A DNA stretch of 64,000 bases, taken from an uncultured virus (IMG/VR IMGVR_UViG_3300027877_000003) (lineage: Duplodnaviria > Heunggongvirae > Uroviricota > Caudoviricetes). This document shows positions 2-30,940 of the stretch, in pieces. Location of the stretch: IMG/VR virus record IMGVR_UViG_3300027877_000003. One strand, written 5' to 3'. Position numbers and translations under genes: made by a program. Positions within the stretch are counted from its first letter, which is position 1. Every line of letters starts with the position of its first letter. The notes under the pieces are model-generated. The model was given only the letters and a program-made list of their open reading frames with translations. It searched no databases and was not told the DNA's origin.

Positions 2-136
2 AGATATAAGTTTGATTTTGTACCAGAAGAAACAAATATTCTTAGGGCAAGTGCATCTCCGTACCCTCAAACTGGATGGTGGTTTTCTAAAACACTTATG
101 GTATTTAGAAAAATGCACTATTGGAGAGAAGAATAA
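2..136 (+). CDS. 3' end of a gene truncated by the window edge; possibly a SAM-dependent methyltransferase
   Basis: Frame 2 is open from the window start and reads RYKFDFVPEETNILRASASPYPQTGWWFSKTLMVFRKMHYWREE* (TAA 134-136), two bases before the next ATG. The W..xxLMVFRK ending resembles class I methyltransferase C-termini, but this is weak. Confidence 0.5.
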   Translation, partial: RYKFDFVPEETNILRASASPYPQTGWWFSKTLMVFRKMHYWREE

Positions 137-138
137 AT

Positions 139-3033: not shown

Positions 3034-3667
3034 TTTATGTATTCCTACTTTAAATAGATATGATCTATTAACGAAATGTGTGTTAAGTGCTGTTAATGGA
3101 ACAGTAAAACCAACACAGATTTTGATTATAGATAATGGATGTAAGTTAGAAAGACCTAATATAGAAAATTTACACGTTTATAATTTTGGAAAGAACATTG
3201 GCGTTGCCGCTAGTTGGAATTTTTTTATAAAGAATACAGCAGAGTATAGAATTATTTGTAATGACGATGTAGACTTTTTTGAAGATACTATTGAAATTTT
3301 ATTAAATGCTTCAGATGAAAATTGTGTAGCTTACCCTGGAGCAGTTCCATCAGATAACGCTTTCTCTTGTTTTGTTATTCCAGATAAGATAGTAAATATA
3401 GTTGGATATTTTGATGAAAAAATATCTCCAAACTATGCATACTTTGAGGATAATGATTATTTTAGAAGAATGAACTTGGCTGGTTATTCAACTAGAAGAG
3501 TTTTTGAATCTAGATTAAACCACATAAAGAGTTCTACTTTACATGGCTTTACTATTCAAGAACAAAATCAACATCACTTCTTATTTAGGAAAGCTAGAGA
3601 AAATTATATTAGAAAATGGGGAGGTATACCAGGAGAGGAGAGATTAATCATTCCTAAAACTTTATAG
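3011..3667 (+). CDS. Glycosyltransferase family 2
   Basis: IPTLNRYDLL, IIDNG, NIGVAASWN, ICNDD, VGYFDE, YFEDNDY. TTG start follows GGAGG at 3001-3005. Confidence 0.85.
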   Translation: MYKGKEINLCIPTLNRYDLLTKCVLSAVNGTVKPTQILIIDNGCKLERPNIENLHVYNFGKNIGVAASWNFFIKNTAEYRIICNDDVDFFEDTIEILLNASDENCVAYPGAVPSDNAFSCFVIPDKIVNIVGYFDEKISPNYAYFEDNDYFRRMNLAGYSTRRVFESRLNHIKSSTLHGFTIQEQNQHHFLFRKARENYIRKWGGIPGEERLIIPKTL

Positions 3668-5212: not shown

Positions 5213-5214
5213 TT

Positions 5215-10423: not shown

Positions 10424-11668
10424 ATGAAAAGATTATTATGGCTGTCAGATGGAGTGATTCCGACAGGATTTTCTAGAGTCGCACACTCCATTATTGGGCA
10501 TTTACCAGAAGAGGAATATGAAATTCATCACTTAGCTGTGAATTATTATGGAGATCCTCATCAGTATAAACACAAAATTTATCCCGCAGTATCTAAAGGA
10601 AATATTTATGGATTGAATAGAATCCACGAGTTTAAAAATAAAAGTCTTACCGGGATTTTTATTTTAAACGATCTTTGGGTGGTAGATTTATATCTAAAGA
10701 AAATAAAAGAAGAATTCAAAAATAATATTCCCCCGATAATTGTATACTTTCCAGTAGATGCTGAAAACTTTGATGAAGAATGGTTTAGTAATTTTGATAT
10801 AGTTACACAAGCAGTTGTGTATACAAAGTTTGGATACAACGTAGCTAAAGCTGCTTATCCAAACCACGAATTTAAAATCATTCCTCATGGTGTATCTACG
10901 GATATTTTTTACAAGTTAGGGGATGATAAAAGAAAAATAAAAGAATCGCTATATCCAAAACGTGCAGAATTTTTAGACGATTCTTTTATTGTGCTTAATG
11001 CAAATAGAAACCAGCCTAGAAAAAGAATTGATGTAGCCGTAGAAGGATTTGGATTATTCTCTAAAAATAAACCAGAGAATGTAAAATACTATCACCACGC
11101 AGGTCTTCAAGATGCTGGATGGAACATATTAAAATTAGCGAAGACTTTCAACATAGATAAAAGAATTATCCTAACTAATATGGAAGCCAATGTTCAAAGG
11201 GTTTCAGACACAAAATTAAATCTAATTTACAATGCAACCGACGTAGGATTGAATACAAGCTTGGGAGAAGGTTGGGGATTGCCAAATGTTGAACACGCTG
11301 CTACAGGATCGGTTCAAGTCGTTTCTGCTAATAGTGCCAGTCAAGAATTGTTTGAAGATTGTGGATTGTTAATTCCTGTTTCACAACATTTATATTTTGA
11401 AAGAATATTGACTAAAGGACTTTTAGTTAGACCAGAAGATGTTGCAGATAGATTACAGTTTCTTTATGATAACAGAGATGCAATGAAAGCATTGTCAGAT
11501 CTTTGTTATGCAAAGTTTACCAGTGAGAAATATAGTTGGGAAGCTATAACTAAGAAATGGGATGAACTATTTTCTGAAATTTTTATAGAGAAAAAACCAG
11601 TTGAGACAGAGAAAGAAGAGGTAATAAATGACGAAATCGGGCCAGAACGTGACGATATATCAGGGTGA
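10424..11668 (+). CDS. GT-B fold glycosyltransferase, family 4
   Basis: TGFSRVAH, IIPHGV, NANRNQPRKRID, IYNATDVGLNTSLGEGWGLPNVE (E-x7-E motif). Confidence 0.9.
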   Translation: MKRLLWLSDGVIPTGFSRVAHSIIGHLPEEEYEIHHLAVNYYGDPHQYKHKIYPAVSKGNIYGLNRIHEFKNKSLTGIFILNDLWVVDLYLKKIKEEFKNNIPPIIVYFPVDAENFDEEWFSNFDIVTQAVVYTKFGYNVAKAAYPNHEFKIIPHGVSTDIFYKLGDDKRKIKESLYPKRAEFLDDSFIVLNANRNQPRKRIDVAVEGFGLFSKNKPENVKYYHHAGLQDAGWNILKLAKTFNIDKRIILTNMEANVQRVSDTKLNLIYNATDVGLNTSLGEGWGLPNVEHAATGSVQVVSANSASQELFEDCGLLIPVSQHLYFERILTKGLLVRPEDVADRLQFLYDNRDAMKALSDLCYAKFTSEKYSWEAITKKWDELFSEIFIEKKPVETEKEEVINDEIGPERDDISG

Positions 11669-11972
11669 TTATAGAATTCTTGAAGTAACTGTACTAGATG
11701 AAACGGATGCTCCAAGAGATGTTACTGGATATTTAGCAACTTGGGTTGTTTATAAACCGACTACAAAGGAAATTGTATTAACTAAAACAGTTGGTTCTGG
11801 AATTTCTGTACTTGTAGGAGCGGTGTTTGATATTACTTTAGAACCAGAAGACACCATTAATTTATTGGGACAATATAATCATGAGTGTGAACTTTTAGAT
11901 AATAGTTCACATCCATTTACTATTTTAACTGGTTACTTTAAAGTATTCTCCAGTGAAGCGAATCATCCATGA
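11628..11972 (+). CDS. BppU N-terminal-like Ig-fold structural/adaptor protein
   Basis: QNVTIYQGDYRILEVTVLD...DVTG...FDITLEPEDT..L.G.Y.HE pattern, 114 aa. Confidence 0.55.
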   Translation: MTKSGQNVTIYQGDYRILEVTVLDETDAPRDVTGYLATWVVYKPTTKEIVLTKTVGSGISVLVGAVFDITLEPEDTINLLGQYNHECELLDNSSHPFTILTGYFKVFSSEANHP

Positions 11973-12871
11973 GCAAAGTATCTATAATTATTCCTTCTAG
12001 AAATGAAATTTTTCTTGCTGAAACAGTAAAAGATCTTTTAACAAAAGCCAGTGGAGATATAGAAGTAATTGCTTTTTTAGATGGCTATTGGCCAGATGGA
12101 AACACAACTCATAATTTAGATTTATGGAATGAATTATTAGTTTCTGAAAATCCAAACATTGTTATATTACGTATAAACAATGCCAAGGGAATGAGGAACG
12201 CTATCAATTCTGCTGCCTCAATTGCTAGAGGAGAATATCTTCTAAAGTGTGACGCTCACTGTATGTTTGGTGAAGGATACGATGAAATATTAAAAGCAGA
12301 TATGCAAGATAATTGGATAGTAATTCCTCCTAGATATTCTCTAGATGCAGAGAATTGGAAGATAGAGGATAATGGAAAACCTAGAAGAGATTATCATTAT
12401 CTTTGTTATCCAGACCCAAATAAAGATCATGATCATGGTATGCATGGTGTAGAGTGGTGGAGTAGAGGCAGAGAAAGAGCCGATTATATTATAGACGATA
12501 ATATGTCTTTTCAAGGAAGTTGTTGGTTCATGAAGAAAACTTGGTTTACTGATTTCTTAGGGGGAATGAGTGAAGTAGGCTATGGAACATTTAGCCAAGA
12601 GCCTCAAGAAATTGGATTAAAAACATGGTTAGGTGGTGGAGAAATCAAAGTAAATAAAAATACTTGGTACGCTCATTTACATAAAGGATCGAGGTATGGA
12701 AGAATGTATAAAATAAATCAGAAAGAAATAATAAATTCTCATGATTGGGCTGCTAGACATTGGATGAATAATGAATGGGAAAAAAGAATTCATAATATAG
12801 ATTGGCTTATTGAAAAGTTCTGGCCTGTCCCTACATGGCCAGAAGACCGTTCTTTATGGGTAGCCCCATGA
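11969..12871 (+). CDS. GT-A glycosyltransferase (GT2/GT27-like), paralog 1
   Basis: SIIIPSRNE, GMRNAINSAA, KCDAHC (DxH), QEPQEIGLKTWLGGG..WYAHLHK. Confidence 0.85.
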   Translation: MSKVSIIIPSRNEIFLAETVKDLLTKASGDIEVIAFLDGYWPDGNTTHNLDLWNELLVSENPNIVILRINNAKGMRNAINSAASIARGEYLLKCDAHCMFGEGYDEILKADMQDNWIVIPPRYSLDAENWKIEDNGKPRRDYHYLCYPDPNKDHDHGMHGVEWWSRGRERADYIIDDNMSFQGSCWFMKKTWFTDFLGGMSEVGYGTFSQEPQEIGLKTWLGGGEIKVNKNTWYAHLHKGSRYGRMYKINQKEIINSHDWAARHWMNNEWEKRIHNIDWLIEKFWPVPTWPEDRSLWVAP

Positions 12872-13764
12872 ATAAAGTTTCTATTATTATACCATCCAGA
12901 GATGAAGAATATTTAAACAGTACAATTAAAGATTTATTAAATAAAGCGGTATGGGATGTAGAAATAATTGTAATTTTAGATGGATATACTTCTCATCCTC
13001 TTCCAGATTATGATCCTAGAATTAGATATCTACAATTACCAGAACCAATGGGAATGAGACATGCAATTAACTTAGGAGCTAATCTGGCAACTGGAAAATA
13101 TTTAATGAAGTTAGATTCTCATTGTGTAATGAGTGAAGGTTATGATCTTATCTTCCAAGAATACTGTGATGATGATTGGGTAGTGGTAGCTAGAAGAAAA
13201 GAATTAAGTCCTGAATGGATAGTTACTGAACCTACAGCGGATTATTTTTATATGAGTAATCCTTGGACTTCTCCTAATGGTTATATGAGAATGTCCAGAT
13301 GGATCACTAGAGATAAACAAAGAGAAAGCATGTTACATGATGAAACAATGTGTTTCTCTGGAAGTATCTGGTTTATGTCTAAAGATCATTTCTTCAAAAG
13401 AATTAAAACAATGGATGAAGAAAGGTTTGGTCAATGGTCTGGAGAACCAGAAGAAATTTCATGTAAAACTTGGTTAAGTGGTGGGAAGGTTATAATCAAT
13501 AAAGATATCTATCACGCCCACCTTAGGAAAGATAAAATAGGAAGACCTTATCACATTTCTTGGAATTCAGCTTTAAAGGGTTTACAAGAAAGTGCTAGAT
13601 ATTGGTCTAGTGATGAATGGCCTGACAGGATATATAATTTTGAATGGCTGATAGATCACTTCTGGCCTTTGCCTACTAAAGAACATCATTGTAATGGAGA
13701 AAGGTATTTTTGGGAGTACGACTGGAAGGAGAGGTATTTATGGAAGACATTAAATTTTTCTTAG
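12868..13764 (+). CDS. GT-A glycosyltransferase (GT2/GT27-like), paralog 2
   Basis: SIIIPSRDE, KLDSHC, WSGEPEEISCKTWLSGG..HAHLRK. ATG 12868 overlaps the upstream TGA. Confidence 0.85.
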   Translation: MNKVSIIIPSRDEEYLNSTIKDLLNKAVWDVEIIVILDGYTSHPLPDYDPRIRYLQLPEPMGMRHAINLGANLATGKYLMKLDSHCVMSEGYDLIFQEYCDDDWVVVARRKELSPEWIVTEPTADYFYMSNPWTSPNGYMRMSRWITRDKQRESMLHDETMCFSGSIWFMSKDHFFKRIKTMDEERFGQWSGEPEEISCKTWLSGGKVIINKDIYHAHLRKDKIGRPYHISWNSALKGLQESARYWSSDEWPDRIYNFEWLIDHFWPLPTKEHHCNGERYFWEYDWKERYLWKTLNFS

Positions 13765-14399
13765 AAACAAATTATCCGCTTGCAAAAGATTCTTATGATT
13801 ATATCTACCCACAGGGAGCGGCTGTAGATAATAATCGTAGACCAGAATTCAATCAAGAACTAAAAAATTTTCCAGGAAGCGTTTTAGATTTGGGGTGTGC
13901 TGGAGGAGGATTTATTAAAGATTGTGTAGACGAGGGAAGAATAGCTATCGGATTAGAGGGAAGTGATTATTGTAAAAAATTTAATAAATATGAATGGGCT
14001 ACAATTCCAGATAATTTATTTACTTGTGATATTACTAAACCATTTATATTACATATAGGAAATATAAAACCTTATAAATTTAACATCGTAACTATGTGGG
14101 AAGTTTTTGAACATATAGAAAAGAAAGATATAGATCAAGTATTTGAAAACATAAGAAATCATTTATCTGACAGCGGAATTTTTCTTTGTACAATTACTAG
14201 AGGACATAGCCCACATGACTTCTATAGAGAAGTTGATCTACACAGAACCAGAGAAAAAAGGGAGTGGTGGTTAAAACAATTTATACATAATGGATTTATT
14301 GAGGATGAGCAAGTTGAAGAAAAATTTGCTGGAAAATGGATGAGAGAAAGCAGAAGTAATTATAAACTTGCTTTCAGAAAGGATTTGAAAAGTGGCTAA
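13740..14399 (+). CDS. Class I SAM-dependent methyltransferase
   Basis: VLDLGCAGGG, IGLEGS, TCDITKP, WEVFEHI, NHLSDSGIF. ATG 13740 after GGAGAGG. Confidence 0.85.
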   Translation: MEDIKFFLETNYPLAKDSYDYIYPQGAAVDNNRRPEFNQELKNFPGSVLDLGCAGGGFIKDCVDEGRIAIGLEGSDYCKKFNKYEWATIPDNLFTCDITKPFILHIGNIKPYKFNIVTMWEVFEHIEKKDIDQVFENIRNHLSDSGIFLCTITRGHSPHDFYREVDLHRTREKREWWLKQFIHNGFIEDEQVEEKFAGKWMRESRSNYKLAFRKDLKSG

Positions 14400-15297
14400 G
14401 GTATCAATATTAATTCCTTCTCGTAATGAAACTTATAAAACTAATTTTGGAACTACAGTTCTACAACAAACAGTTATAGATGTATTAGAAAAAGCTACTG
14501 GAGATTATGAAGTTCTGGTTATATTTGATGGAGAACCTTATCAGGATTTACCTGAGCATAAAAATCTAACGGTGTTCTATAACAAATCCCCAACAGGATC
14601 TAAGAAATGTATCAGTAAATTAATTAATAGATCTACAGGAAAATTCGTATTCAAATTAGACTCTCATTGTATGGTAGCAGAAGGATTTGATGAAGTATTG
14701 CAAAAAGATGTAGAAGATAATTGGGTAGTTATTCCTAGATTTTATGTACTAAATGCTGAGGAATGGAAGTGGCAAGATGAAAGATTTTACGATTATTTTT
14801 ATCTGCCCTGTCCTTTAACTGATAAGAAGCAATTCAGATTTCAAGCTGGAGGACATTGGAAAGAAAGAACCAAAGAAAGATTAGATATTTCTATAGATGA
14901 GAATATGAAACTTCATGGTTCTGCTTTTTTTATGAGCAAAGATTTCTTTATAAATTGTATAAAGGAATTAGATTCAAAGTACGATGATTGTAGTGGAGAA
15001 GATATAGAGATAAGTTTGAAAACGTGGCTAGGATCTTGGGGTGGAAAATTAATGGTAAACAAAAATACTTGGTATGCACACATGCATAAGGGTGGCCAAA
15101 GACCGAGAGGTTATCATATGGGAGGAGAACAAATTAAAAATACATATGATTTTATAGCTAACTATTGGATGAGGAATTCTTGGGAAGAAAGAGAACACGA
15201 TTTGGAATGGTTAATAGAAAAATTTTATCCTGTTCCTACTTGGCCTGAAAACTGGAAAGAACTTTGGAATGAATGGAAAGGAGTTAATAATGAATAA
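14392..15297 (+). CDS. GT-A glycosyltransferase (GT2/GT27-like), paralog 3
   Basis: SILIPSRNE, KLDSHC, SGEDIEISLKTWLG..GG..WYAHMHK, WLIEKFYPVPTW. Confidence 0.85.
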   Translation: MAKVSILIPSRNETYKTNFGTTVLQQTVIDVLEKATGDYEVLVIFDGEPYQDLPEHKNLTVFYNKSPTGSKKCISKLINRSTGKFVFKLDSHCMVAEGFDEVLQKDVEDNWVVIPRFYVLNAEEWKWQDERFYDYFYLPCPLTDKKQFRFQAGGHWKERTKERLDISIDENMKLHGSAFFMSKDFFINCIKELDSKYDDCSGEDIEISLKTWLGSWGGKLMVNKNTWYAHMHKGGQRPRGYHMGGEQIKNTYDFIANYWMRNSWEEREHDLEWLIEKFYPVPTWPENWKELWNEWKGVNNE

Positions 15298-15931
15298 TAC
15301 TTTGAATTATTTTGTAGAAACTTTTGGACTTGACTTGTCTAATCCTTCTCCTATAACTCTGCGTTATAGTAGATATAATATTATAAATGCATTTAGAGAA
15401 CTTAATTTTTCAATGGGTGTAGAAGTTGGAACTGAACACGGAAGATATGCAGAAAAAGTAGTATCAAGTAATCCACAACTCAAATTATATTGTGTAGATC
15501 CGTACCTAGCCATACCTTATTATGAAGCATATAAAGAACAAGAAGAAGTGGATTCATTTTATGAAGTAGCTAAAAATAGACTTAGTGAATATAATTGTGT
15601 AATATTAAAGACAACTAGCATGGAAGCAGTTAAACAATTTGAAGATAATGGTTTAGATTTCGTTTTTATAGATGCTGATCATAGATTTGAATTTGTAATT
15701 AATGATCTTATTTACTGGTCTAGGAAAGTTAAGCCTGGGGGAATTGTATATGGACATGATTATATTGATGACTTTCAAGTAAAACAAGCAGTTCATGTTT
15801 ATACTGATGTATATAAAATCAATCCTTGGTTTATTTTACATAAGGGAGGAAGACTCATAGATAGCTGGATGTTTGTTAGACAAGAAACCGATCAAATTTT
15901 CCTTCCAAAAGATAGTTATTGGTATCAATAA
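15290..15931 (+). CDS. Class I SAM-dependent methyltransferase (Methyltransf_24-like)
   Basis: GVEVGTEHG, LYCVDPY, DFVFIDADH, KVKPGGIVYGHDY. ATG 15290 after AAGGAG. Confidence 0.85.
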   Translation: MNNTLNYFVETFGLDLSNPSPITLRYSRYNIINAFRELNFSMGVEVGTEHGRYAEKVVSSNPQLKLYCVDPYLAIPYYEAYKEQEEVDSFYEVAKNRLSEYNCVILKTTSMEAVKQFEDNGLDFVFIDADHRFEFVINDLIYWSRKVKPGGIVYGHDYIDDFQVKQAVHVYTDVYKINPWFILHKGGRLIDSWMFVRQETDQIFLPKDSYWYQ

Positions 15932-15932
15932 A

Positions 15933-23947: not shown

Positions 23948-26136
23948 TGAGTGCCAGCATTTCACCCAGTTTCAGCCCAAGTCCATCAATGGCAATTGTG
24001 CAGGATGTGGTACTACGCTTCAAGGGTAGCCCAAGTGTCAGTCCTTCAATCAGTCCCTCAGTCAGCCTTTCTGTTTCACCGTCAGTTAGCTTTAGTATCT
24101 CTCCAAGTGCATCAGTCAGTCTGAGTATAAGTGAATCTCCGTCACTCAGTCCATCACCAAGCATGGGTGTATCTGAATCTGAGTCTGTTAGTCCAAGTGT
24201 ATCACTTAGTATTTCCCCAAGCATAAGCCCAAGTGCGTCTGTATCTCCTAGTATTAGTCCTAGCGTAAGTATCAGTGTTTCGCCGTCTGAATCTCCTTCT
24301 GTTTCTTTAAGCATAAGCCTTTCTGCGAGTGTTTCTCTTTCTGTTAGTCCTTCAGAATCACCTTCTGTATCAATTAGTATTTCTCCTTCGATTAGTCCAA
24401 GCGAAAGTGTATCACTATCAATCAGTCCTAGTATATCTCCGAGTGTATCACGTTCGGTTAGTCCAAGTGTAAGTCCTTCTGTTGGTGCTGTTGGTTCAGT
24501 TAGTTGGGGTCATTTGACTGGTGTAACACAAGACAATGTTTTGACATTTGCTGGTAACTGGACAGGTACTGGATCAATCACTGGAACAAATGATGCAGAG
24601 ACAATGTGTATAGATGAAGGCGAATATATGATGTCAGAGATAGTCGAGACAGGAGACATGATAGTTGTTTTGACCCAAAACACATATGACCCTGGAGGAG
24701 AAGATGCCCCAATACTGGAATATAGAACCGGAGCAACTTCCGCAGAGTGTTTTGATGCAGCATGGATAATTTATACTGCACCATTCTTATCTGCTGGTTA
24801 TGTGCAGATAAAAGTTACTAATGCAGACATATTTTATGTAGATGCCACAGGCGGGAGTGATAGCAATCCTGGTACACTGGCCGAACCTTGGAAGACGATT
24901 GATAAGGTGAATGGGGAAACATTTACGGCGGGTGATCACATCCTATTCAAGAGAGGAGAAACATGGAGTACGGTAGATGATGTATTGCGTATTACTTGGA
25001 ACGGATCAGCAGAGAATCACATTGTATTTGGTGCATACGGATCAGGTGCATTGCCGATTATCTCACCAACCAACACAATTCCTATCTATGCACCAGCAGT
25101 ACAAAGCTATATTACCGTTGAGAACATAGATTGCAATGTGAACGGGACTGGTAATTTTGGAATGCAGGTTAGATTATCTAACTCGATTATTAGGAATTGC
25201 GTGGCACGAGAAGCGGCAATGGCGGGAATACTTCTTGGATCAGATAGTGCATATACTCTGATAGAAAATTGTACTTGCTATAACAACGCACAGTTTGGCA
25301 TTCAGGGTTATACCGCTTCAGGCAGTACCATTCACGACATCATTGTTCAAAATAATACTTGTTACGCAAATGGTACTGATAGTGGTGGACATCATGGAAT
25401 ATATTTAGGCGGTAATGGAGGAACTGGTAGATGTGCATATAACCTGACTATGCGTGGAAATACCTGTTATGAAAATGCTTCTTGTGGGGTCAAATACAAC
25501 ACCGTCGAGGATAGCATTATTGAGCAGAATTATTGCTATGACAATGGTTTAGCTGGTGTATTCCTTAGTGCGGAAACAAGTCGAGTGTCCTCCAATAATA
25601 TTGTCAGAAACAATATTTGCTACTCCAATTCGTGCGGTATAGCACTTTTGGGGGACGGTGTTGATGACAATGAGCTTTATCACAACACATTGGTTTTGAA
25701 TTATGCGGCTGGATGGGCGGGCATAAGCTACTATTACGACGGACTATCCGGTAATACAGCTAAGAATAACATTATCTATATGGATAATAGCTACACTGGC
25801 GCTCCCCCTATACGCTTTGCCGGAGTAAACGCCAGAGACAATAATATTACTGACTATAATTTGATTTACTGGAAAGATAGACCACCTGCGAACGGAATAA
25901 TTTATGTGGATGGCGTGGGCTATTACACGTGGACTGCTTGGCAAGCACTTGGTAAAGATACACATAGTATCAATGCGTCCGATCCAGTTTTTGTTACCGA
26001 CTTCACCGATTTACACATCCAAACCACCAGTCCTGCTAAGAACACGGGTGAGACTGGATTAGGTGTAACCGATGATTACGAGGGTACAATCCGTGATGCC
26101 CAACCAGATATGGGTGCATATGAGTACGTGGCTTAG
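23947..26136 (+). CDS. 729-aa serine-rich-repeat fibre with WGH domain and C-terminal beta-helix
   Basis: N-terminal Ser-X tract, VSWGH domain, FYVDATGGSDSNPGTLAEPWKTI, repeated IIENCTCYNN-type rungs, ends DLHIQTTSPAKNTG..DMGAYEY. Confidence 0.75.
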   Translation: MSASISPSFSPSPSMAIVQDVVLRFKGSPSVSPSISPSVSLSVSPSVSFSISPSASVSLSISESPSLSPSPSMGVSESESVSPSVSLSISPSISPSASVSPSISPSVSISVSPSESPSVSLSISLSASVSLSVSPSESPSVSISISPSISPSESVSLSISPSISPSVSRSVSPSVSPSVGAVGSVSWGHLTGVTQDNVLTFAGNWTGTGSITGTNDAETMCIDEGEYMMSEIVETGDMIVVLTQNTYDPGGEDAPILEYRTGATSAECFDAAWIIYTAPFLSAGYVQIKVTNADIFYVDATGGSDSNPGTLAEPWKTIDKVNGETFTAGDHILFKRGETWSTVDDVLRITWNGSAENHIVFGAYGSGALPIISPTNTIPIYAPAVQSYITVENIDCNVNGTGNFGMQVRLSNSIIRNCVAREAAMAGILLGSDSAYTLIENCTCYNNAQFGIQGYTASGSTIHDIIVQNNTCYANGTDSGGHHGIYLGGNGGTGRCAYNLTMRGNTCYENASCGVKYNTVEDSIIEQNYCYDNGLAGVFLSAETSRVSSNNIVRNNICYSNSCGIALLGDGVDDNELYHNTLVLNYAAGWAGISYYYDGLSGNTAKNNIIYMDNSYTGAPPIRFAGVNARDNNITDYNLIYWKDRPPANGIIYVDGVGYYTWTAWQALGKDTHSINASDPVFVTDFTDLHIQTTSPAKNTGETGLGVTDDYEGTIRDAQPDMGAYEYVA

Positions 26137-26144
26137 GATGTTAA

Positions 26145-27602
26145 ATGGCTAGTTTTAGTGTTTCGCCTAGTGTAAGTCCAAGTCCTTCTGCTGGCACAAT
26201 TTGTATTGAGGACATTCAATTAGATTTTCTTGGTAGTCCATCAGTAAGTCTATCAGTTTCTCCTTCAGCGTCTGTAAGTTTGAGCATTTCTTTTTCAGCT
26301 TCTATATCTCCTTCAGAATCTGTTTCTCCATCAATTAGTTTATCGGCTTCTGTTAGTCCCAGTGAATCTCCTTCCATTTCTCTTAGTGCTTCTATATCGG
26401 TAAGTATTAGTCCGTCTGTTTCACCTTCGATAAGTCAATCCGCTTCAGTTTCTCTAAGTGAATCTCCTAGTGTTTCTGCTAGCATTTCACCTAGTATTTC
26501 CGCTTCAGTTAGTCTATCAATTTCACCTTCGGCCAGTGTCTCTTTAAGTATAAGTCCTTCTGTATCTGCCAGCGTTAGTGTTTCTGTATCGCCAAGTATT
26601 AGTAAATCTGCTTCGGTCAGTCCTAGTATAAGCGTTAGCGTTTCTCCGTCTATATCGGTTTCTGTTTCACCAAGTATCAGTTTCTCAGCTAGTATTTCTG
26701 TATCAATTAGTCCGTCAATTAGTCCAAGTGTTTCACCAAGCTTTTCTGTTTCCCCTTCAGTTAGTCCGAGTGTTTCCCCTTCAGTTAGTCCAAGCTTTAG
26801 TGTCTCTCCTTCAATCAGTCCATCTGAAAGTCCTTCAGTTAGTATATCAATCTCTCCATCAATTAGTCCAAGTTATTCTGTTTCAGTAAGTGAAAGTTTA
26901 TCGGTTAGCCCTTCCGTTTCACCGAGTTATTCAGTAAGTTTATCAATCTCTCCCAGTGAATCTCCATCTGTAAGTCCATCATTCTCAGTAAGTCCATCAA
27001 TTTCTGTCAGTGTTTCTCCTTCAATTAGTCAATCCGCTAGTGTTAGTGTTTCAGAATCAATTTCTGTATCAGCTTCTGTAAGCGTTTCAGAATCTCCAAG
27101 TATAAGTTTATCAGCTTCTGTTTCACCTAGCGTCAGTCTATCAGTAAGTCCGTCTATCTCCCCAAGTGCTAGTGTAAGCGTTTCTGAAAGTTTAAGTATT
27201 TCTCCTTCAGAAAGTGTAAGTGCCAGCGTTAGTCCTTCAGCGTCTATAAGTCCTTCTATTGGACTTGAAGGTTCAGTTTGTTGGGGGCATGTAACTGGAG
27301 TAGTAGAAGAAAATACAAGAACTTTTGCAGATAATTGGACAGGTACAGGAACAATTACTAGTTCAGGAGATGCAGAAACAATCTGTCTTAATTCAGATGA
27401 ATATATGGAATCAGAAGTTGTATATACTGATACAATAAGTGTCGGATTAAAGCAAAATTTTTATGAAGTTGGAGATACTATATTACTTAGATATAGGCAT
27501 GGAGCTACTAGTGTAGCTTGTTTAGCCGCTGCTTGGAATGATTATACTGTTCCATTCAAATCTTTGGGCTATGTTCAAGTTAGAATAGAGGGGATAGCAT
27601 AA
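26145..27602 (+). CDS. 485-aa serine-rich-repeat linker protein with C-terminal WGH domain
   Basis: About 370 aa of Ser-X, then GSVCWGH...LGYVQVRIE. Confidence 0.75.
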   Translation: MASFSVSPSVSPSPSAGTICIEDIQLDFLGSPSVSLSVSPSASVSLSISFSASISPSESVSPSISLSASVSPSESPSISLSASISVSISPSVSPSISQSASVSLSESPSVSASISPSISASVSLSISPSASVSLSISPSVSASVSVSVSPSISKSASVSPSISVSVSPSISVSVSPSISFSASISVSISPSISPSVSPSFSVSPSVSPSVSPSVSPSFSVSPSISPSESPSVSISISPSISPSYSVSVSESLSVSPSVSPSYSVSLSISPSESPSVSPSFSVSPSISVSVSPSISQSASVSVSESISVSASVSVSESPSISLSASVSPSVSLSVSPSISPSASVSVSESLSISPSESVSASVSPSASISPSIGLEGSVCWGHVTGVVEENTRTFADNWTGTGTITSSGDAETICLNSDEYMESEVVYTDTISVGLKQNFYEVGDTILLRYRHGATSVACLAAAWNDYTVPFKSLGYVQVRIEGIA

Positions 27603-30463
27603 TGGCTGTAACAATAGGCCCAATTGCCGTAAATGCTAGTGCTGATGATGCCAGTCAGATCAGTGCAACTGTCAGCATCACCGCTAATCCTCTAGCCAAC
27701 TGTGATACTACTGGTAACTGGAATGGTTGGATATTCCGAGGGATTACTATTCCGGCAGGAGCTACAATTACTTCTGCTTATCTAACAGTAAATTTTACAA
27801 GCACTTCTTTAGATGAACCTGATGTAACAATTTATGGATTAGATACAGAAACTCCCGCAGCTTTTGCAGTTGCAGATAATAATATATCAAGCAGAACACG
27901 TACAACTGCAAGTGTAGATTGGGCAGTTGCTAATGCGGGTGGTGCTGATATTAATACTTCTGATATTAGTTCAATTATTACTGAACTCATTGGAAGTTAT
28001 ACATACAATAATGGAGTAATGGGGTTTGTCTGGACTAGTAGAGCGGGGGATACATCTAGGGATACATCAGCTACATCTTATGATGGAAGTTCAACAGAAT
28101 GTGCCAGATTAACAATAACTTATTCCGCTCCTTCCGCAAGCTTAAGTCCTTCTTATAGTGTATCTCCAAGTGTAAGTCCTTCTTATAGCGTTTCTCCAAG
28201 TATAAGCCAAAGTTATAGTCTAAGTCAAAGTCCAAGTATAAGTCCGTCAGTTTCACCGTCAGTTAGCCCTTCAATTTCTCCTAGCTTTAGCGTTTCTCCT
28301 AGTATCAGTGAATCGTTTAGTGTTAGTCCTTCGATCAGTCCTTCAATCAGTCTGTCAGTTTCACCTAGCGAGTCTCCGTCCATCTCTCAGAGTGCTTCTG
28401 AAAGTAGAAGTGAATCTCCGTCTGTTTCTTTGAGTTTGTCGGAATCTCCAAGCGAAAGTCCTTCTTTATCCCCAAGTGTTTCGCCTTCCATTTCTGAAAG
28501 TGCTTCAGTAAGTGTTAGTGAATCTCCGTCTGTCTCTTTAAGTATTTCAGAGAGTGCAAGCGAAAGTCCTTCTATATCTCCCTCCGCATCAGCAAGTCCT
28601 TCGGTTGGTGCTGAAAGATGTGTAGAAGACATTGTTCTTTACTTCCCAGGAAGTGAAAGTGTATCTCCTAGCGTAAGTCCTAGTGTATCAATTTCAGTAT
28701 CACCGAGCGAAAGCCCAAGTATATCTCTTTCTGCATCAGTAAGTCCCAGTATTAGTGCTTCAGTTAGTCCATCGGTTTCTGTTTCAGTTTCTCCTAGTGT
28801 ATCACCAAGCGCATCAGTCAGTGTTTCAGTTTCTCCATCCATAAGTCCTTCAGTTAGTGTAAGTGTTTCTCCTTCTATTTCACTGTCAGCTAGTGTTTCA
28901 CCCTCAGTTTCTGTTTCAGTTTCACCTTCAATCAGCCCTTCAGCAAGCGTTTCTCCTTCGGTTTCGATTTCAGTAAGTCCTTCAATAAGCCCATCTGCTA
29001 GCATTTCTATTAGTGTAAGTCCCAGTGTTTCAGTTTCAGTTAGCCCCAGTGAATCCCCAAGCATTTCACTTTCAGCCAGTGTATCTGTTAGCATTTCTCC
29101 AAGCGTTTCACCTTCAGAAAGTCCATCTATTTCTCCTTCTGCTTCTGTATCACCATCTGTAAGTATCTCAGTCAGTCCTTCTGTTTCTCAAAGTGCTTCG
29201 GTAAGTATTTCAGTATCGCCTTCAGTATCACTTTCAGTTTCACCTTCAGTTAGTCCCAGTATCTCACCGAGTTATAGCGTTTCTGTCTCTGTAAGTCCTA
29301 GCGAATCTCCTAGCATTTCTGTTTCAGTTAGTCCATCTGTTTCTCCTTCACCAAGTGTTTCTCCCAGTGTAAGTTTATCTGTCTCGCCTAGTATAAGCCC
29401 ATCTGCTTCTGTTAGCGTTAGTGTAAGTCCAAGTGTCAGTTTAAGTATTTCTTTATCTGCAAGTGTTTCACCTAGCGTTAGTCCATCAGGGTCTTTAAGT
29501 CCAAGTGCATCAGAAAGTCCTAGCCCATCATTAGGGGTAAGTGGATCATGGAGTTTATCTCCTAGTTATTCAGTTAGTCCTTCAATTAGTAAATCTGTTT
29601 CACCCAGTATTTCGCCTTCCGTTAGTCCATCAATTAGTCCTTCGGCATCGGTTAGTCCATCAGTTTCTCCAAGCGTTTCAAGAAGTTTAAGTCCATCTTA
29701 CAGTGTTTCGGTTAGTGTTTCTCCAAGCGTAAGTCTATCAATTTCTCCTTCTCCGAGTGTAAGTCCTAGTATTTCGGTTTCAGTTTCTCCTAGTATTTCT
29801 CCGTCAGCCAGTGTAAGTCGTTCAGAAAGTCCAAGCGTATCTGTTAGTGTCAGTCCAAGTCCATCAGAAATATCTTCTGGATCGCTCTCACTTTCTCCAA
29901 GCTTTTCAATAAGTCCCAGTGTTAGTAAAAGTATTTCTCCAAGTGTTAGTCCTTCAGTTAGCCCAAGTATATCACCAAGTTTCTCTGTAAGTGTTTCTGT
30001 TTCACGATCAGTATCACGCTCAATTTCTCCAAGCTATTCGATTAGTCCTAGTTTTTCAGTCAGTCTTTCACTTTCTCCATCAGCCTCTCCATCAGCATCT
30101 GTAAGTGTTAGTGTATCGGCAAGTGAATCTGCTTCAGTTAGTATTTCAATTAGTCCGAGTGAATCTCCTAGTGTTTCACCGTCAATAAGTCCGTCTGCTT
30201 CTGTATCTATTAGTGCTTCTGCATCGGAATCTTTATCAGTAAGTTTAAGTCTTTCTCCATCTGCTTCTTTTAGTCCTTCAGCCTCACGGAGTCCTAGTGC
30301 ATCTCCAAGTCCATCATTACCCCCATTACAAGATAAGCTACAATTAATAGGATCTATTATAGAAGTACAGAGTTTAGTAGGAAGTGTATATTCAATTCAA
30401 AGACAAACTTTACTAGGAAGTATAATTATAATAACTAGTTTATTAGGTGAGGTAAATAATTAA
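27602..30463 (+). CDS. 953-aa serine-rich-repeat protein with N-terminal beta-sandwich domain and C-terminal L-x-G-S repeats
   Basis: ASADDA..FRGITIPAGATITSAYLTV..ARLTITY domain, about 730 aa of Ser-X, C-terminal LIGS/LVGS/LLGS/LLGE repeats. Confidence 0.75.
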   Translation: MAVTIGPIAVNASADDASQISATVSITANPLANCDTTGNWNGWIFRGITIPAGATITSAYLTVNFTSTSLDEPDVTIYGLDTETPAAFAVADNNISSRTRTTASVDWAVANAGGADINTSDISSIITELIGSYTYNNGVMGFVWTSRAGDTSRDTSATSYDGSSTECARLTITYSAPSASLSPSYSVSPSVSPSYSVSPSISQSYSLSQSPSISPSVSPSVSPSISPSFSVSPSISESFSVSPSISPSISLSVSPSESPSISQSASESRSESPSVSLSLSESPSESPSLSPSVSPSISESASVSVSESPSVSLSISESASESPSISPSASASPSVGAERCVEDIVLYFPGSESVSPSVSPSVSISVSPSESPSISLSASVSPSISASVSPSVSVSVSPSVSPSASVSVSVSPSISPSVSVSVSPSISLSASVSPSVSVSVSPSISPSASVSPSVSISVSPSISPSASISISVSPSVSVSVSPSESPSISLSASVSVSISPSVSPSESPSISPSASVSPSVSISVSPSVSQSASVSISVSPSVSLSVSPSVSPSISPSYSVSVSVSPSESPSISVSVSPSVSPSPSVSPSVSLSVSPSISPSASVSVSVSPSVSLSISLSASVSPSVSPSGSLSPSASESPSPSLGVSGSWSLSPSYSVSPSISKSVSPSISPSVSPSISPSASVSPSVSPSVSRSLSPSYSVSVSVSPSVSLSISPSPSVSPSISVSVSPSISPSASVSRSESPSVSVSVSPSPSEISSGSLSLSPSFSISPSVSKSISPSVSPSVSPSISPSFSVSVSVSRSVSRSISPSYSISPSFSVSLSLSPSASPSASVSVSVSASESASVSISISPSESPSVSPSISPSASVSISASASESLSVSLSLSPSASFSPSASRSPSASPSPSLPPLQDKLQLIGSIIEVQSLVGSVYSIQRQTLLGSIIIITSLLGEVNN

Positions 30464-30906
30464 TGACAACGATAATCTGGCCTTCAGACACAAAAGAAGT
30501 AATAGATTCTATTAGAGGGGCAATCGGTAGAGATGTAACTTTTTGGAATGTAGTATCTCAAGAAGCTTGTGAAATTTGCTCATTAGACCCAGTAACAAAT
30601 TTATCTACAGATGCATTTTGTCCGGTCTGTTCTGGATTTTATTGGATATCTGTTTATTCAGGATATACTACTTCAGCACATATTACTTGGAATCCTGCGG
30701 AAACTTTAACATGGAATACGGGAGGTCAGCAATTTGATGGAGATTGTAGAATTCAAATAGAATATTCAGAACAAATAGCTACAATTGTAGACCAAGCTGA
30801 ATATGTAATTGTAGATAATAAGACTCTAGAAATAGAGAATAAAATTTACAGAGGGGTACAACCGCTAAATAGAATAATTTTAAATCTAATGTTGAAAGAA
30901 AAATAA
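30463..30906 (+). CDS. Head-closure/stopper-like protein with a Cys4 zinc-finger insertion
   Basis: CEIC..CPVCSG; beta-rich 147 aa; resumes the neck module after the island. Confidence 0.5.
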   Translation: MTTIIWPSDTKEVIDSIRGAIGRDVTFWNVVSQEACEICSLDPVTNLSTDAFCPVCSGFYWISVYSGYTTSAHITWNPAETLTWNTGGQQFDGDCRIQIEYSEQIATIVDQAEYVIVDNKTLEIENKIYRGVQPLNRIILNLMLKEK

Positions 30907-30940
30907 CAATAGTAAATAAAAAGGTAAGGAGGTTATAGAA

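What the first reader, a model, noticed from the sequence alone, without database searches (positions are those of the whole stretch)
10424..30463. Candidate phage-encoded mucin-like glyco-fibre system: O-glycosylation enzymes plus their Ser-rich substrates in one island
Seen: one tightly packed, mostly translationally coupled 20-kb block holds a GT4, four DxH-type glycosyltransferase paralogs, two methyltransferases, a small adaptor and four proteins with roughly 1,600-1,700 residues of alternating Ser-X (about 800 Ser, estimated from tract coordinates) carrying lectin-like and beta-helix domains. Known: streptococcal/staphylococcal serine-rich repeat adhesins (GspB, Fap1, PsrP, SraP) have the same S-X periodicity, are primed by the GT4 enzyme GtfA/B, are extended by clustered GTs and need SecA2/SecY2 and LPxTG. 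Mucins are O-glycosylated on Ser/Thr near Pro. Some mycobacteriophages and chloroviruses glycosylate their own virions. Here there is no signal peptide, LPxTG or accessory Sec, and the locus sits among virion genes. Inference: the phage builds glycosylated bottle-brush stalks in the cytoplasm that project binding domains from the virion, for reach through a matrix or sheath, protease resistance or shielding. I do not know of a described phage system like this.
Basis: partly seen in the sequence, partly recalled or inferred. Interest (0 to 1): 0.93.

Follow-up and report, generated by a model that had tools for sequence, protein, structure and literature searches.

The report
Phage mucin-like serine-fibre glycosylation island
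An uncultured freshwater phage carries, among its particle genes, four enzymes resembling those that start mucin sugar-coating in animals, right beside four proteins with very long serine-every-second-residue stretches, so it probably makes sugar-coated hairs for its own particle, although no sugar has been measured.

Summary
Window 10424-30463 holds a GT4, four DxH GT2 paralogs, two methyltransferases, a 114-aa ORF and four proteins with 1,675 residues of alternating Ser-X (834 Ser).

New here:
- The four paralogs are polypeptide GalNAc-transferase (GT27)-like by sequence and by fold (top 50 PDB matches all GT27).
- GT27-like plus Methyltransf_24 genes travel with S-X tract proteins. S-X tracts occur in 63 of 80 related viral loci, always on the same strand and within 2 kb. 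After dereplication, 50 of 67 lineages have tracts of at least 100 residues, against 0 of 75 GT27-free loci.
- Backbone relatives lack both enzymes and tracts together, or carry the island in another slot.

Corrections: GT4 belongs to the phage backbone, not the island, and is not GtfA-like. "Adaptor" is unsupported.

Caveats: glycosylation, the sugar and virion attachment are all inferred. The enzyme module also occurs in bacterial chromosomes, mostly labelled CPR, without nearby tracts (17 of 71 loci have them).

Seven literature searches found no description. Earlier notes of this scan report the same pairing on other DNA.

Verdict: a real, widespread, probably undescribed phage system. It is a new variant of virus-encoded virion glycosylation and of serine-rich-repeat glycoproteins.

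The parts
11628..30463 (+). Island as delimited by comparison with relatives: everything between GT4 and the o147 homologue
   Evidence: In L005 and L006 the GT4 homologue is followed directly by the o147 homologue. In L008 a smaller island lies upstream of o166-GT4-o147.
10424..11668 (+). GT4-like glycosyltransferase; phage backbone gene, not island
   Evidence: phrog_2170 E 7e-44. PDB best match chlorovirus PBCV-1 B736L (3oy2), E 6.2e-13, residues 8-386. Retained in island-free relatives.
11628..11972 (+).
   Evidence: phrog_1084, unknown function, E 2.8e-11. No Pfam match. Absent from the 151 other GT27-selected loci.
11969..12871 (+). GT27-like glycosyltransferase 1 (300 aa)
   Evidence: PF00535 E 1.4e-12. 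PDB sequence hits GalNAc-T12, T3, T10. AF2 model pLDDT 90.8. Foldseek top 50 all ppGalNAc-T, E 1.4e-16 to 4e-13. 3,550 homologues at E<=1e-5.
12835..13764 (+). GT27-like glycosyltransferase 2 (309 aa; true start probably at the Met 11 codons in)
   Evidence: PDB best PGANT9 E 6.1e-10; the alignment covers the DSHC motif, the GE..E.S.KTW..GG motif and the third His.
13710..14399 (+). SAM methyltransferase 1 (Methyltransf_23)
   Evidence: Pfam E 5.5e-12. Homologue present in only a few other loci.
14392..15297 (+). GT27-like glycosyltransferase 3 (301 aa)
   Evidence: PF00535 E 4e-9. All 9 PDB hits at E<=0.01 are ppGalNAc-Ts.
15269..15931 (+). SAM methyltransferase 2 (Methyltransf_24); core partner of the GT27-like genes
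   Evidence: Pfam E 3.4e-15. A homologue lies beside GT27-like genes in most viral and MAG loci.
15873..17609 (+). GT27-like glycosyltransferase 4 with Cys-rich insert and an extra 234-aa C-terminal domain of unknown function
   Evidence: PF00535 E 5.6e-11. All 15 PDB hits are ppGalNAc-Ts, over residues 203-285. The C-domain matches only virus-dominated Atlas clusters without a Pfam family. Homologues at 50-62% identity in L002 and L008.
17609..23947 (+). Ser-X protein A (2112 aa). Layout: N-terminal two-sandwich anchor module 1-382; S-X tracts at residues 383-420, 638-701, 924-1053, 1278-1484; two 50%-identical ~220-aa modules; a ~225-aa module; a shared ~110-aa domain; a C-terminal beta-helix
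   Evidence: phrog_14065 E 4.9e-53. N-module AF2 pLDDT 94: ConA/LamG-like, whole-module match to phage proteins at TMq up to 0.76, one annotated virion structural protein. Beta_helix E 1.3e-18.
23947..26136 (+). Ser-X protein B (729 aa): tracts 2-15 and 28-179, shared ~110-aa domain, beta-helix
   Evidence: Beta_helix E 1.1e-14 and NosD E 1.5e-8. 63% identical to A over the shared domain.
26145..27602 (+). Ser-X protein C (485 aa): tracts 3-16 and 31-372, shared ~110-aa C-terminal domain
   Evidence: No Pfam or PHROG match.
27602..30463 (+). Ser-X protein D (953 aa): N-terminal 177-aa domain, tracts 178-335 and 351-906, 47-aa hydrophobic C-terminal tail
   Evidence: No Pfam or PHROG match. One contig with 0 differences covers 27276-31000 in two runs.
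30463..30906 (+). o147, first backbone gene after the island
   Evidence: Homologues follow GT4 directly in L005, L006 and L008.
121..3667 (+). Possible accessory sugar-supply and GT genes upstream of the terminase: nucleotidyltransferase, unknown 247-aa ORF, GmhA-like SIS protein, GT25, two GT2
   Evidence: Pfam CTP_transf_like 1e-20, SIS_2 9e-10, Glyco_transf_25 1.5e-7, Glycos_transf_2 twice. NCBIfam gmhA 5.4e-23 and glycerol-3-P cytidylyltransferase 1.4e-28, both below curated cut-offs. A link to the island is inferred only.

Best explanation
An 18.8-kb island in a siphovirus-like phage encodes a self-contained protein O-glycosylation system together with its substrates.

How it probably works:
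- Four soluble GT27-like (polypeptide GalNAc-transferase-like, GT-A, DxH) enzymes act in the host cytoplasm on the serines of four co-encoded proteins.
- Those proteins' long alternating Ser-X tracts (X mostly Val, Pro, Ile, Ala, Leu) serve as dense acceptor arrays.
- At least one paralog would add the first sugar to Ser. The others would take different sequence contexts or extend the glycan. The Methyltransf_24 enzyme, and here a second methyltransferase, probably methylates the sugars.
- The products would be mucin-like 'beads on a sugar-coated string'. Each would have an N-terminal anchor module, stiffened S-X stalks (about 180-250 nm for protein D if extended at 0.25-0.35 nm per residue, my arithmetic) and distal lectin-like and depolymerase-like beta-helix domains.
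- They are most likely mounted on the head or neck of the virion.

Shown: the genes, the tracts, the GT27-like sequence and fold, the genomic coupling, and the position in the structural module.

Inferred: that Ser is glycosylated, which sugar is used, the roles of the paralogs and methyltransferases, virion attachment and biological purpose.
For: (1) Enzyme identity. All four paralogs have ppGalNAc-Ts among their top PDB sequence hits: best E 6.1e-10; the best match for three of them and the second-best for GT27_1, whose top hit is an uncharacterised putative glycosyltransferase (3bcv). The alignment covers DxH, the Gal/GalNAc-T-like motif and the third His. The AF2 model (pLDDT 90.8) has only ppGalNAc-T structures among its top 50 Foldseek PDB matches (E 1.4e-16 to 4e-13, TMq 0.60-0.74).

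(2) Coupling in viral contigs. 424 IMG/VR stretches encode a relative, and the best 80 were kept. The count set was L002 plus 79 of those loci. The window's own copies L001, L003, L004 and L007 were excluded, as were the GT4-selected L005 and L006. Of these 80 loci, 63 have an S/T-X tract ORF of >=40 residues and 57 one of >=100. Among loci of >=15 kb it is 38 of 42. The nearest tract ORF is on the same strand in 63 of 63, within 2 kb in 63 of 63, and the median gap is 49 nt. Dereplicated at 90% identity, 50 of 67 lineages have tracts >=100.

(3) Reverse test and background. I examined 80 viral loci selected only by a Ser-Pro-Ser-x codon pattern. The 67 without a real tract have 0 GT27-like genes. 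All 5 loci with GT27-like genes have tracts. The 3 loci with tracts >=100 residues all have GT27-like plus MT2. Comparing 50/67 with 0/75 gives Fisher p about 5e-24.

(4) Gain and loss together. Backbone relatives L005 and L006 have neither enzymes nor tracts. L008 has both, in a different slot.

(5) Protein-level selection for Ser. Both Ser codon boxes are used and the DNA is barely repetitive.

(6) Virion context. The island lies between head and tail genes. In another lineage (L060, L063) the cassette follows the major head protein gene. Protein A's N-module is a common phage anchor-type module: 2,460 representative clusters, one fold match annotated virion structural protein, and a Streptomyces phage homologue between capsid genes and the head-to-tail adaptor. 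Beta-helix domains match carbohydrate-active enzymes.

(7) No secretion signals, so modification would be cytoplasmic.
Against: - No chemistry: nothing shows a sugar on these serines, and the donor sugar is unknown.
- Identity to GT27 enzymes is low (15-20% in the fold alignments). Pfam names only the generic Glycos_transf_2. The GT27 lectin domain is absent.
- The GT27-like plus MT2 module also occurs in what look like bacterial chromosomes (L135 with an elongation-factor gene, L096 with a NusG-like gene). There, only 17 of 71 MAG loci have an alternating tract within the fetched flank, or 21 of 71 by a looser S/T-rich measure. So these enzymes are not tied to S-X tracts everywhere.
- 17 of 80 viral loci showed no tract, though many of these are short or truncated.
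- The background loci were chosen by a DNA pattern, include giant-virus contigs and two duplicate pairs, and are not a random sample.
- Virion attachment rests on gene position and on annotations by others. Proteins B and C have no recognisable anchor domain.
- Only 10 of 98 longer carriers of the A-type N-module have S-X tracts.
Confidence: 0.6

Rival explanations
1. The GT and methyltransferase cassette is an auxiliary or host-takeover module that remodels host surface glycans or glycoproteins, for example for adhesion, superinfection exclusion or receptor masking. The S-X tracts are simply unmodified flexible linkers in fibre proteins.
For: The same GT27-like plus MT2 module sits in apparently chromosomal loci of MAGs (38 of 71 labelled Patescibacteria/CPR), beside sugar epimerase, aminotransferase and acetyltransferase genes and mostly without nearby tracts. 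Published work on Patescibacteriota phages reads ConA-like lectin and nucleotide-sugar genes as host-surface auxiliary genes (PMC12911398, passages read). Extra GT and sugar-nucleotide-like genes lie upstream of the terminase.
Against: This does not explain why long S-X tracts are found next to these genes, on the same strand, in 63 of 80 viral loci and in 0 of 75 GT27-free loci at >=100 residues. It also does not explain why both are gained and lost together in one backbone. The enzymes resemble peptide-acting GTs. No flippase, polymerase or polyprenyl-phosphate transferase family was reported among the window ORFs scanned. The enzymes lack membrane segments.
Confidence: 0.12
2. The cassette glycosylates other virion proteins, such as capsid or tail tube subunits as reported for mycobacteriophages. 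The S-X proteins accompany it for another reason, for example as scaffolds or as binders of the glycan through their lectin-like domains.
For: Mycobacteriophage glycans sit on the C-termini of capsid and tail tube subunits (known here only through the citing passage in PMC12619734). The cassette follows the major head protein gene in L060 and L063. GT4, conserved in island-free relatives, must have some other target. Protein A carries lectin-like modules.
Against: Island-free relatives have the same head and tail genes but no GT27-like enzymes, so those enzymes are not needed for the shared virion proteins. The strict Ser periodicity, kept with scrambled codons, calls for a function of the serines themselves. 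In many loci the protein next to the head gene itself bears the S-X tail.
Confidence: 0.1
3. The S-X proteins are glycosylated by the cassette but are not part of the particle. They would be released at lysis as free glycoprotein enzymes or decoys (beta-helix depolymerases, lectins), or act inside the cell.
For: No direct evidence of virion incorporation. Proteins B and C lack a recognisable anchor. The beta-helix domains resemble soluble glycan-degrading enzymes.
Against: They are encoded inside the structural module in at least two lineages. Protein A starts with a module shared by phage proteins annotated as structural. A conserved N-terminus with a variable distal part is typical of attached fibres.
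Confidence: 0.1
4. The glycosyltransferases modify phage DNA (hypermodified bases) and lie near the S-X genes by coincidence.
For: Phage GTs often glycosylate DNA (stated in PMC12619734, passage read). The PHROG family hit by MT2 is labelled 'DNA methyltransferase'.
Against: The best sequence and fold relatives are peptide GTs. The cassette is in the late structural module. The coupling to S-X tracts has no place in this reading. Pfam calls MT2 Methyltransf_24, a generic class I fold.
Confidence: 0.02

Closest known systems
Eukaryotic mucin-type O-glycosylation: polypeptide GalNAc-transferases (CAZy GT27) acting on Ser/Thr/Pro-rich mucin domains
   Same: GT-A catalytic domain with DxH, third His and Gal/GalNAc-T-like motif. 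These are the best sequence and fold relatives (defining features as in PMC4202792, passage read). Several paralogs act beside a dense Ser- and Pro-containing acceptor array.
   Different: No ricin-type lectin domain and no membrane anchor; presumably cytoplasmic. Only 15-20% identity. Acceptors are strictly period-2 Ser-X, with no Thr-rich PTS repeats. The donor sugar is unknown. The system is encoded by a bacteriophage and by bacteria labelled mostly CPR.
Serine-rich repeat adhesins of Gram-positive bacteria (GspB, Fap1, PsrP, SraP) with GtfA/GtfB and the accessory Sec system
   Same: Very long alternating Ser-X repeats that separate binding domains. Dedicated clustered GTs modify the protein in the cytoplasm. 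The result is a stalk-plus-binding-domain design.
   Different: The enzymes differ: GT27-like GT-A here, not GtfA/B. The window's GT4 has no GtfA match at E<=1 and belongs to the backbone. No SecA2/SecY2, signal peptide or LPxTG. Phage-encoded and probably virion-borne.
Staphylococcal Ser-Asp repeat proteins glycosylated by SdgA/SdgB
   Same: A strictly alternating Ser-X dipeptide tract serves as substrate for two dedicated GTs acting stepwise, and glycosylation protects the stalk from proteolysis (PMC3794999, abstract read).
   Different: X is Asp there; here it is Val, Pro, Ile, Ala or Leu. Those are secreted, wall-anchored bacterial adhesins. The enzymes are a different family (family not checked here).
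Mycobacteriophage virion glycosylation (Freeman et al. 2023, Cell Host Microbe)
   Same: Phage-encoded GTs glycosylate the phage's own structural proteins.
   Different: There the glycans are on the C-termini of capsid and tail tube subunits (as cited in PMC12619734). That paper is not held, so its enzyme families were not compared. Here there are dedicated giant S-X substrate proteins and GT27-like enzymes. No INPHARED phage has a GT27-like homologue at E<=1e-5.
Autonomous glycosylation in giant viruses (chlorovirus capsid glycans, mimivirus fibrils)
   Same: Virus-encoded cytoplasmic glycosylation of virion surface proteins. The window's GT4 is homologous to chlorovirus B736L.
   Different: Those viruses have eukaryotic hosts, different acceptor proteins and linkages, and no S-X tracts (my own knowledge; review PMC4691112 seen only in a search listing).

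Membership tests
CAZy GT27 (polypeptide GalNAc-transferases) | GT-A catalytic domain closest in fold to solved GT27 enzymes | tested here: met
   AF2 model of GT27_1 (pLDDT 90.8). Foldseek PDB top 50 all ppGalNAc-T, E 1.4e-16 to 4e-13, TMq 0.60-0.74. Only one of the four paralogs was folded.
CAZy GT27 (polypeptide GalNAc-transferases) | DxH metal-binding motif plus a third His (Asp209, His211, His344 in mouse GALNT1, per PMC4202792) | tested here: met
   D95, H97 and H236 (GT27_1 numbering) are invariant in all four paralogs and in 21 family members. They align with the LDSHC and G-H-x-x-R-K stretches of PGANT9.
CAZy GT27 (polypeptide GalNAc-transferases) | Gal/GalNAc-T motif in the C-terminal half of the catalytic domain (motif name recalled) | tested here: met
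   The GE..E.S.KTW..GG stretch aligns between GT27_2 and PGANT9. E214, T219, W220, L221, G223 and G224 are invariant among the four paralogs. Pfam did not report Glyco_transf_7C.
CAZy GT27 (polypeptide GalNAc-transferases) | C-terminal ricin-type lectin domain | tested here: not met
   Three paralogs end after about 300 aa. The fourth has an unrelated 234-aa domain with no Pfam match.
CAZy GT27 (polypeptide GalNAc-transferases) | Transfers GalNAc from UDP-GalNAc to Ser/Thr of a polypeptide | not testable with these tools
The peptide acceptor is inferred from coupling to S-X tracts, and the sugar is unknown.
Serine-rich repeat protein / accessory Sec system | Long Ser-rich repeat regions with alternating Ser | tested here: met
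   1,675 tract residues, 834 Ser.
Serine-rich repeat protein / accessory Sec system | GtfA/GtfB priming glycosyltransferase pair | tested here: not met
   The only GT-B enzyme, GT4, matches chlorovirus B736L and no GtfA at E<=1. It is a backbone gene present without S-X proteins.
Serine-rich repeat protein / accessory Sec system | SecA2/SecY2/Asp export genes, long signal peptide, LPxTG anchor | tested here: not met
   None among the window ORFs scanned with Pfam and PHROGs. No LPxTG and no N-terminal hydrophobic segment (a crude scan).
Phage virion glycosylation (mycobacteriophage type) | Phage-encoded GTs in or near the structural module | tested here: met
   The island lies between head and tail genes, and likewise in L060 and L063.
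Phage virion glycosylation (mycobacteriophage type) | Glycan demonstrated on virion proteins | not testable with these tools
   Needs glycoproteomics or glycan staining of particles.

The most novel reading that the evidence does not exclude
Tailed phages of freshwater and groundwater bacteria, perhaps ultra-small CPR/Patescibacteria, make a true mucin-like coat. Head- or neck-borne fibres hundreds of nanometres long would be glycosylated on every second residue by prokaryotic relatives of the animal GT27 enzymes. This would be the first mucin-type protein O-glycosylation system in a bacterial virus. It would also give a prokaryotic or viral reservoir from which the origin of the eukaryotic GT27 family could be traced. 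Genes now listed as host-surface 'auxiliary' genes in such phages would instead build the virion's own glycocalyx.
Probability: 0.3. Interest if true: 0.9.

Novelty: new variant of a known kind. Interest (0 to 1): 0.8.

Why it matters
If true, phages can make dedicated mucin-like glycoproteins for their own particles. The enzymes involved are related to those that start mucin glycosylation in animals.

What that would mean:
- It widens phage virion glycosylation from a few decorated capsid tails in mycobacteriophages to a widespread system: 424 confirmed viral stretches and 3,550 enzyme homologues.
- It offers soluble, probably cytoplasmic peptide O-glycosyltransferases with simple (S-X)n acceptors, which could be useful for glyco-engineering.
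- It bears on how phages reach, stick to or hide from cells in matrices.
- It gives a testable handle on the prokaryotic relatives of GT27.
- It questions the routine reading of lectin and sugar genes in uncultured phages as host-directed auxiliary genes.

Tried and rejected
- GtfA-like priming by GT4: rejected.
- DNA-repeat artefact: rejected by mixed Ser codons and weak tandem arrays.
- Misassembly of the S-X genes: unlikely, since long contigs from runs of three studies match with 0-3 differences, though some may be the source sample. Run X1 had no cover over 22567-27123; I draw no conclusion from that. The many short-sided 'joints' look like cross-matches between repeats.
- The short non-Ser motif embedded in the tracts of B, C and D, tested as a general docking signal: not found in 0 of 93 S-X ORFs of other loci.
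- Identification of the globular modules between tracts, of D's N-domain, of the ~110-aa shared domain and of the recurrent ~110-aa N-domain in other loci. There were no Pfam, PHROG or PDB sequence matches. The Atlas gave no usable hit for the shared domain.
- MT2 has no solved relative by sequence.
- Deposited phages: no GT27-like homologue.
- Own genome assembly is not held, so host and whole-genome context were not examined. The MAG labels are only a hint of a CPR link.
- No RNA holder listed among the sequencing runs.
- Freeman et al. 2023 could not be read.
- Literature searches that found no description of a phage GT27-like or S-X system. The library lacks most subscription journals, so this is not proof of absence.
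- No complex prediction was run.

Full report
**What is in the window**

The window is the late region of a siphovirus-like phage. In order it has a terminase large subunit (3671-5212), portal (5200-6729), protease-like gene (6829-7788) and a capsid-like gene (8391-9311). Then comes the block in question, followed by a tape measure (35015-39892), tail proteins (40266-44980) and an endolysin (47843-48898). G+C is 30-44% over this part and falls to about 25% beyond 50 kb. There are no tRNA genes. Public runs holding at least 90% of the sampled words of 17000-26900 are wetland and freshwater metagenomes from three studies.

**Checking the observation**

- Pfam finds Glycos_transf_2 in the four paralogs, Methyltransf_23 and Methyltransf_24 in the two methyltransferases, and Beta_helix at the C-termini of the 2112- and 729-aa proteins.
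- The four large proteins contain 1,675 residues of alternating Ser-X with 834 Ser. By protein the tract residues are A 439, B 166, C 356 and D 714. The longest tract is 556 residues. X is mainly Val, Pro, Ile, Ala and Leu.
- The periodicity is held at the protein level. Ser is encoded by both codon boxes (378 AGY, 455 TCN). Tandem Repeats Finder sees only 10 short arrays with 70-91% matches across the 12.9 kb.
- Reverse-strand ORFs inside the tracts (for example 23910-24314) are by-products of this codon periodicity.
- The genes are not an assembly artefact. Contigs from runs of three studies match long stretches with 0-3 differences, including 12170-22506, 25257-28332 and 27276-31000. No insertions or deletions are listed. 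Some of these runs may be the source sample.

**What the enzymes are**

They are more specific than that.
- Against all PDB sequences, polypeptide GalNAc-transferases (GT27) give the best match for three paralogs and the second-best for the fourth: GT27_2 E 6.1e-10, GT27_1 4.6e-5 (second to the uncharacterised putative glycosyltransferase 3bcv, 2.5e-5), GT27_3 2.1e-5, GT27_4L 1.2e-4.
- The alignment to Drosophila PGANT9 covers the DSHC motif, the GE..E.S.KTW..GG stretch and a His-x-x-Arg-Lys stretch.
- These residues are invariant in the four paralogs and in a 21-member family alignment.
- An AlphaFold2 model of GT27_1 (mean pLDDT 90.8) finds only GalNAc-T structures among its top 50 Foldseek PDB matches (E 1.4e-16 to 4e-13, TMq 0.60-0.74).
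- The defining features of GT27 I used (GT-A fold, DxH plus a third His, C-terminal ricin-like lectin domain) are from a passage of PMC4202792.
- The lectin domain is absent here and the proteins have no membrane segment.
- I therefore call them GT27-like, not members of GT27.
- GT27_4L carries a Cys-rich insert and an extra 234-aa C-terminal domain. That domain matches only virus-dominated clusters without any Pfam family.
- The GT4 gene is homologous over its whole length to chlorovirus PBCV-1 B736L (E 6.2e-13).

**The island and its boundaries**

Two IMG/VR relatives with the same backbone (terminase 50-52% and capsid-like protein 60-62% identical) have the GT4 homologue followed directly by the homologue of o147 (window 30463-30906). 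They have no GT27-like gene and no S-X protein (L005, L006).

A third relative, L008, has a smaller island placed upstream of o166-GT4-o147. It holds a GT27_1 homologue at 67% identity, an MT2 homologue, a GT27_4L homologue at 62% and an 844-aa protein with 612 tract residues.

So 11628-30463 is a modular island whose enzymes and tract proteins come and go together. GT4 belongs to the backbone. Only 2 of the 151 other GT27-selected loci have a GT4 homologue, none has the 114-aa ORF, and few have MT1. The conserved core is therefore GT27-like genes, a GT27_4L-type gene, MT2 and S-X proteins.

GT27_1 has 3,550 homologues at E<=1e-5 in the 5.8-billion-protein collection, nearly all metagenomic. 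A family alignment found 424 confirmed stretches in IMG/VR, of which 80 loci were kept, and 109 in species-representative genomes, giving 71 loci.

I scanned every locus for ORFs with at least 40 residues of strictly alternating [S/T]-X.

| Set | Loci with tract >=40 | Loci with tract >=100 | Among loci >=15 kb (>=40) |
|---|---|---|---|
| Viral loci (n=80) | 63 | 57 | 38 of 42 |
| MAG loci (n=71) | 17 | 14 | 13 of 43 |

- The viral set is L002 plus L008-L086. I excluded the window's own copies L001, L003, L004 and L007, and the GT4-selected L005 and L006.
- By a looser measure (at least 45% S+T in 60 residues), 71 of 80 viral loci and 21 of 71 MAG loci are positive.
- In all 63 positive viral loci the nearest tract ORF is on the GT strand and within 2 kb. 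The median gap is 49 nt, and 33 are within 100 nt.
- After clustering the best GT of each locus at 90% identity, 50 of 67 lineages have a tract of at least 100 residues.

For the reverse direction and a background, I scanned IMG/VR for a Ser-Pro-Ser-x codon pattern.
- Most matches were out of frame, so these loci act as a rough background.
- 67 have no real tract and none of them has a GT27-like gene.
- All 5 loci with GT27-like genes have tracts.
- The 3 loci with tracts of at least 100 residues (L164, L195, L212) all have GT27-like plus MT2.
- 50 of 67 against 0 of 75 gives Fisher p about 5e-24.
- This background is not a random sample. It includes giant-virus contigs and two duplicate pairs.

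**Where the proteins probably sit**

Protein A begins with a 380-aa module that is very common: 2,460 representative clusters at E<=1e-3. Of the top 150 hits, 52 are stand-alone proteins of 440 aa or less. The other 98 are longer and have very diverse distal parts, and only 10 of them have S-X tracts. That pattern is typical of a conserved attachment module with a variable outer part.

Its model (pLDDT 94) is two beta-sandwiches.
- The first is ConA/LamG-like, with PDB matches to polysaccharide lyases and lectin-type domains.
- The whole module matches uncharacterised phage proteins at TMq up to 0.76, one of them annotated 'virion structural protein'.
- In Streptomyces phage Hiyaa the homologue (gp13, 30.7% identity, labelled minor tail protein) lies between the capsid genes and the head-to-tail adaptor, with a methyltransferase nearby. 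That is the same slot as the island here.

In another phage lineage (L060, L063; different terminase, major head protein phrog_267) the order is as follows:
1. small and large terminase, further head genes, then the major head protein;
2. a protein of about 300 aa with a 110-aa N-domain and a 100-220-residue S-X tail;
3. GT27-like genes, MT2, then a GT27_4L-type gene;
4. two or three large S-X proteins.

Thirty-seven such small S-X-tailed ORFs were seen among the viral loci.

The distal domains of A and B are right-handed beta-helices. Their start matches the caps of a fibronectin type III domain-containing protein (E 1.4e-7) and a lacto-N-biosidase (E 1.5e-6) and, more weakly, alginate lyases (E 0.005-0.012). 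A, B and C share a 110-aa domain at 51-63% identity, and A has two internal modules that are 50% identical.

I infer head- or neck-attached fibres. This is not shown.

**Mechanism proposed**

This section is inference. The soluble GT27-like enzymes would modify tract serines in the cytoplasm before or during assembly. The paralogs would divide the work by sequence context or by glycan step. MT2, and here MT1 as well, would methylate sugars.

Genes upstream of the terminase could supply an activated sugar and further extension steps. They are a nucleotidyltransferase, a GmhA-like isomerase (E 5.4e-23, below NCBIfam's cut-off), a GT25 and two GT2. Their link to the island is unproven.

**The main complication**

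The enzyme module is not confined to phages. Of the 71 MAG loci, 38 are labelled Patescibacteria/CPR lineages and 20 'uncultured Gammaproteobacteria' (my count). Loci on large contigs look chromosomal: L135 has an elongation-factor gene at E 4.5e-118 and L096 a NusG-like gene, both with sugar-modifying enzymes. Most lack alternating tracts nearby, although other Ser-rich patterns occur, such as SSSV repeats in L119.

This keeps alive the rival that the cassette modifies host surface structures, which is how similar genes are read in the Patescibacteriota-phage literature (PMC12911398, passages read). The strict coupling in viral contigs argues against that reading for the phage copies.

**Comparison with the known, and novelty**

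The system resembles three known kinds but is a member of none.
- Mucin-type O-glycosylation: it has the enzyme fold and motifs but lacks the lectin domain and membrane anchor.
- SRRP and staphylococcal SD-repeat glycoproteins (PMC3794999, abstract read): the acceptors are alike but the enzymes differ, and there is no export or anchoring machinery.
- Mycobacteriophage virion glycosylation: known to me here only through a citing passage, because the paper itself is not held.

Seven literature searches found no description of phage GT27-like enzymes or phage S-X tract proteins. No deposited phage has a homologue.

Earlier notes of this scan describe the same enzyme-plus-stalk pairing on other DNA. 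I saw them after my own tests, and they are not independent evidence.

I rate it a new variant of known kinds (virus-encoded virion glycosylation; serine-rich-repeat glycoproteins). It is widespread and apparently undescribed, with every chemical step still to be shown.

Noticed in passing
window 54157-62084: A cluster of amidoligase (PF12224), phiEco32-like COOH-NH2 ligase, class-II and class-I glutamine amidotransferase, peptidase C26 and RuvB-like genes in the 25%-GC part of the window. This looks like a peptide- or metabolite-modifying set.
   Followed up: no
window 50001-64000: G+C drops from 33-44% to about 25% beyond 50 kb, with two short minus-strand ORFs at 49441-50206 marking the change of module.
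   Followed up: no
window 23986-24024, 26196-26231, 28616-28651: Proteins B, C and D each have one short non-Ser island of about 12 residues inside their tracts (pattern hydrophobic-x-hydrophobic-x-D/E-hydrophobic-x-L-x-F-x-G). It resembles the first strand of protein A's internal modules. It was not found in 0 of 93 S-X ORFs of other loci. Unexplained.
   Followed up: partly
window 17609-17816 and 23948-24127: The identical IMG/VR contig ends exactly at 17609. Public contigs break at 17613/17816 and 23948/24127, where two alleles coexist in two runs. This is strain-level variation at the starts of proteins A and B.
   Followed up: partly
L010, L018, L027, L032, L048, L060:8922-9866, L063:8590-9663 and others: A recurrent protein of about 300 aa lies directly after the major head protein gene and before the GT27-like genes. 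It has a conserved ~110-aa N-domain without Pfam, PHROG or PDB match, plus a 100-220-residue S-X tail. It is a candidate glycosylated head decoration.
   Followed up: partly
L096, L128, L135 (MAG loci): Chromosomal-looking clusters with 3-5 GT27-like and 1-5 Methyltransf_24 genes, next to sugar epimerase, aminotransferase and acetyltransferase genes. In L128 there is also a DGR Avd-like gene. The targets are unknown.
   Followed up: partly
L006:785-4582: The terminase large subunit ORF of this relative is 1,266 aa, with the two halves of the window's TerL matching far apart. This suggests an inserted element such as an intein.
   Followed up: no
window 16260-16400 (within 15873-17609): GT27_4L has a roughly 30-residue insert with four Cys, absent from the three shorter paralogs. 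It is possibly a small zinc-binding element.
   Followed up: no
window 30463-30906: o147, the first gene after the island, has a C-x2-C ... C-x2-C pattern and is conserved next to GT4 in all three relatives. Function unknown.
   Followed up: no
L060:13157-13966: In this other lineage the cassette includes a UDP-glucose dehydrogenase-like gene, so the sugar-supply genes differ between islands.
   Followed up: no
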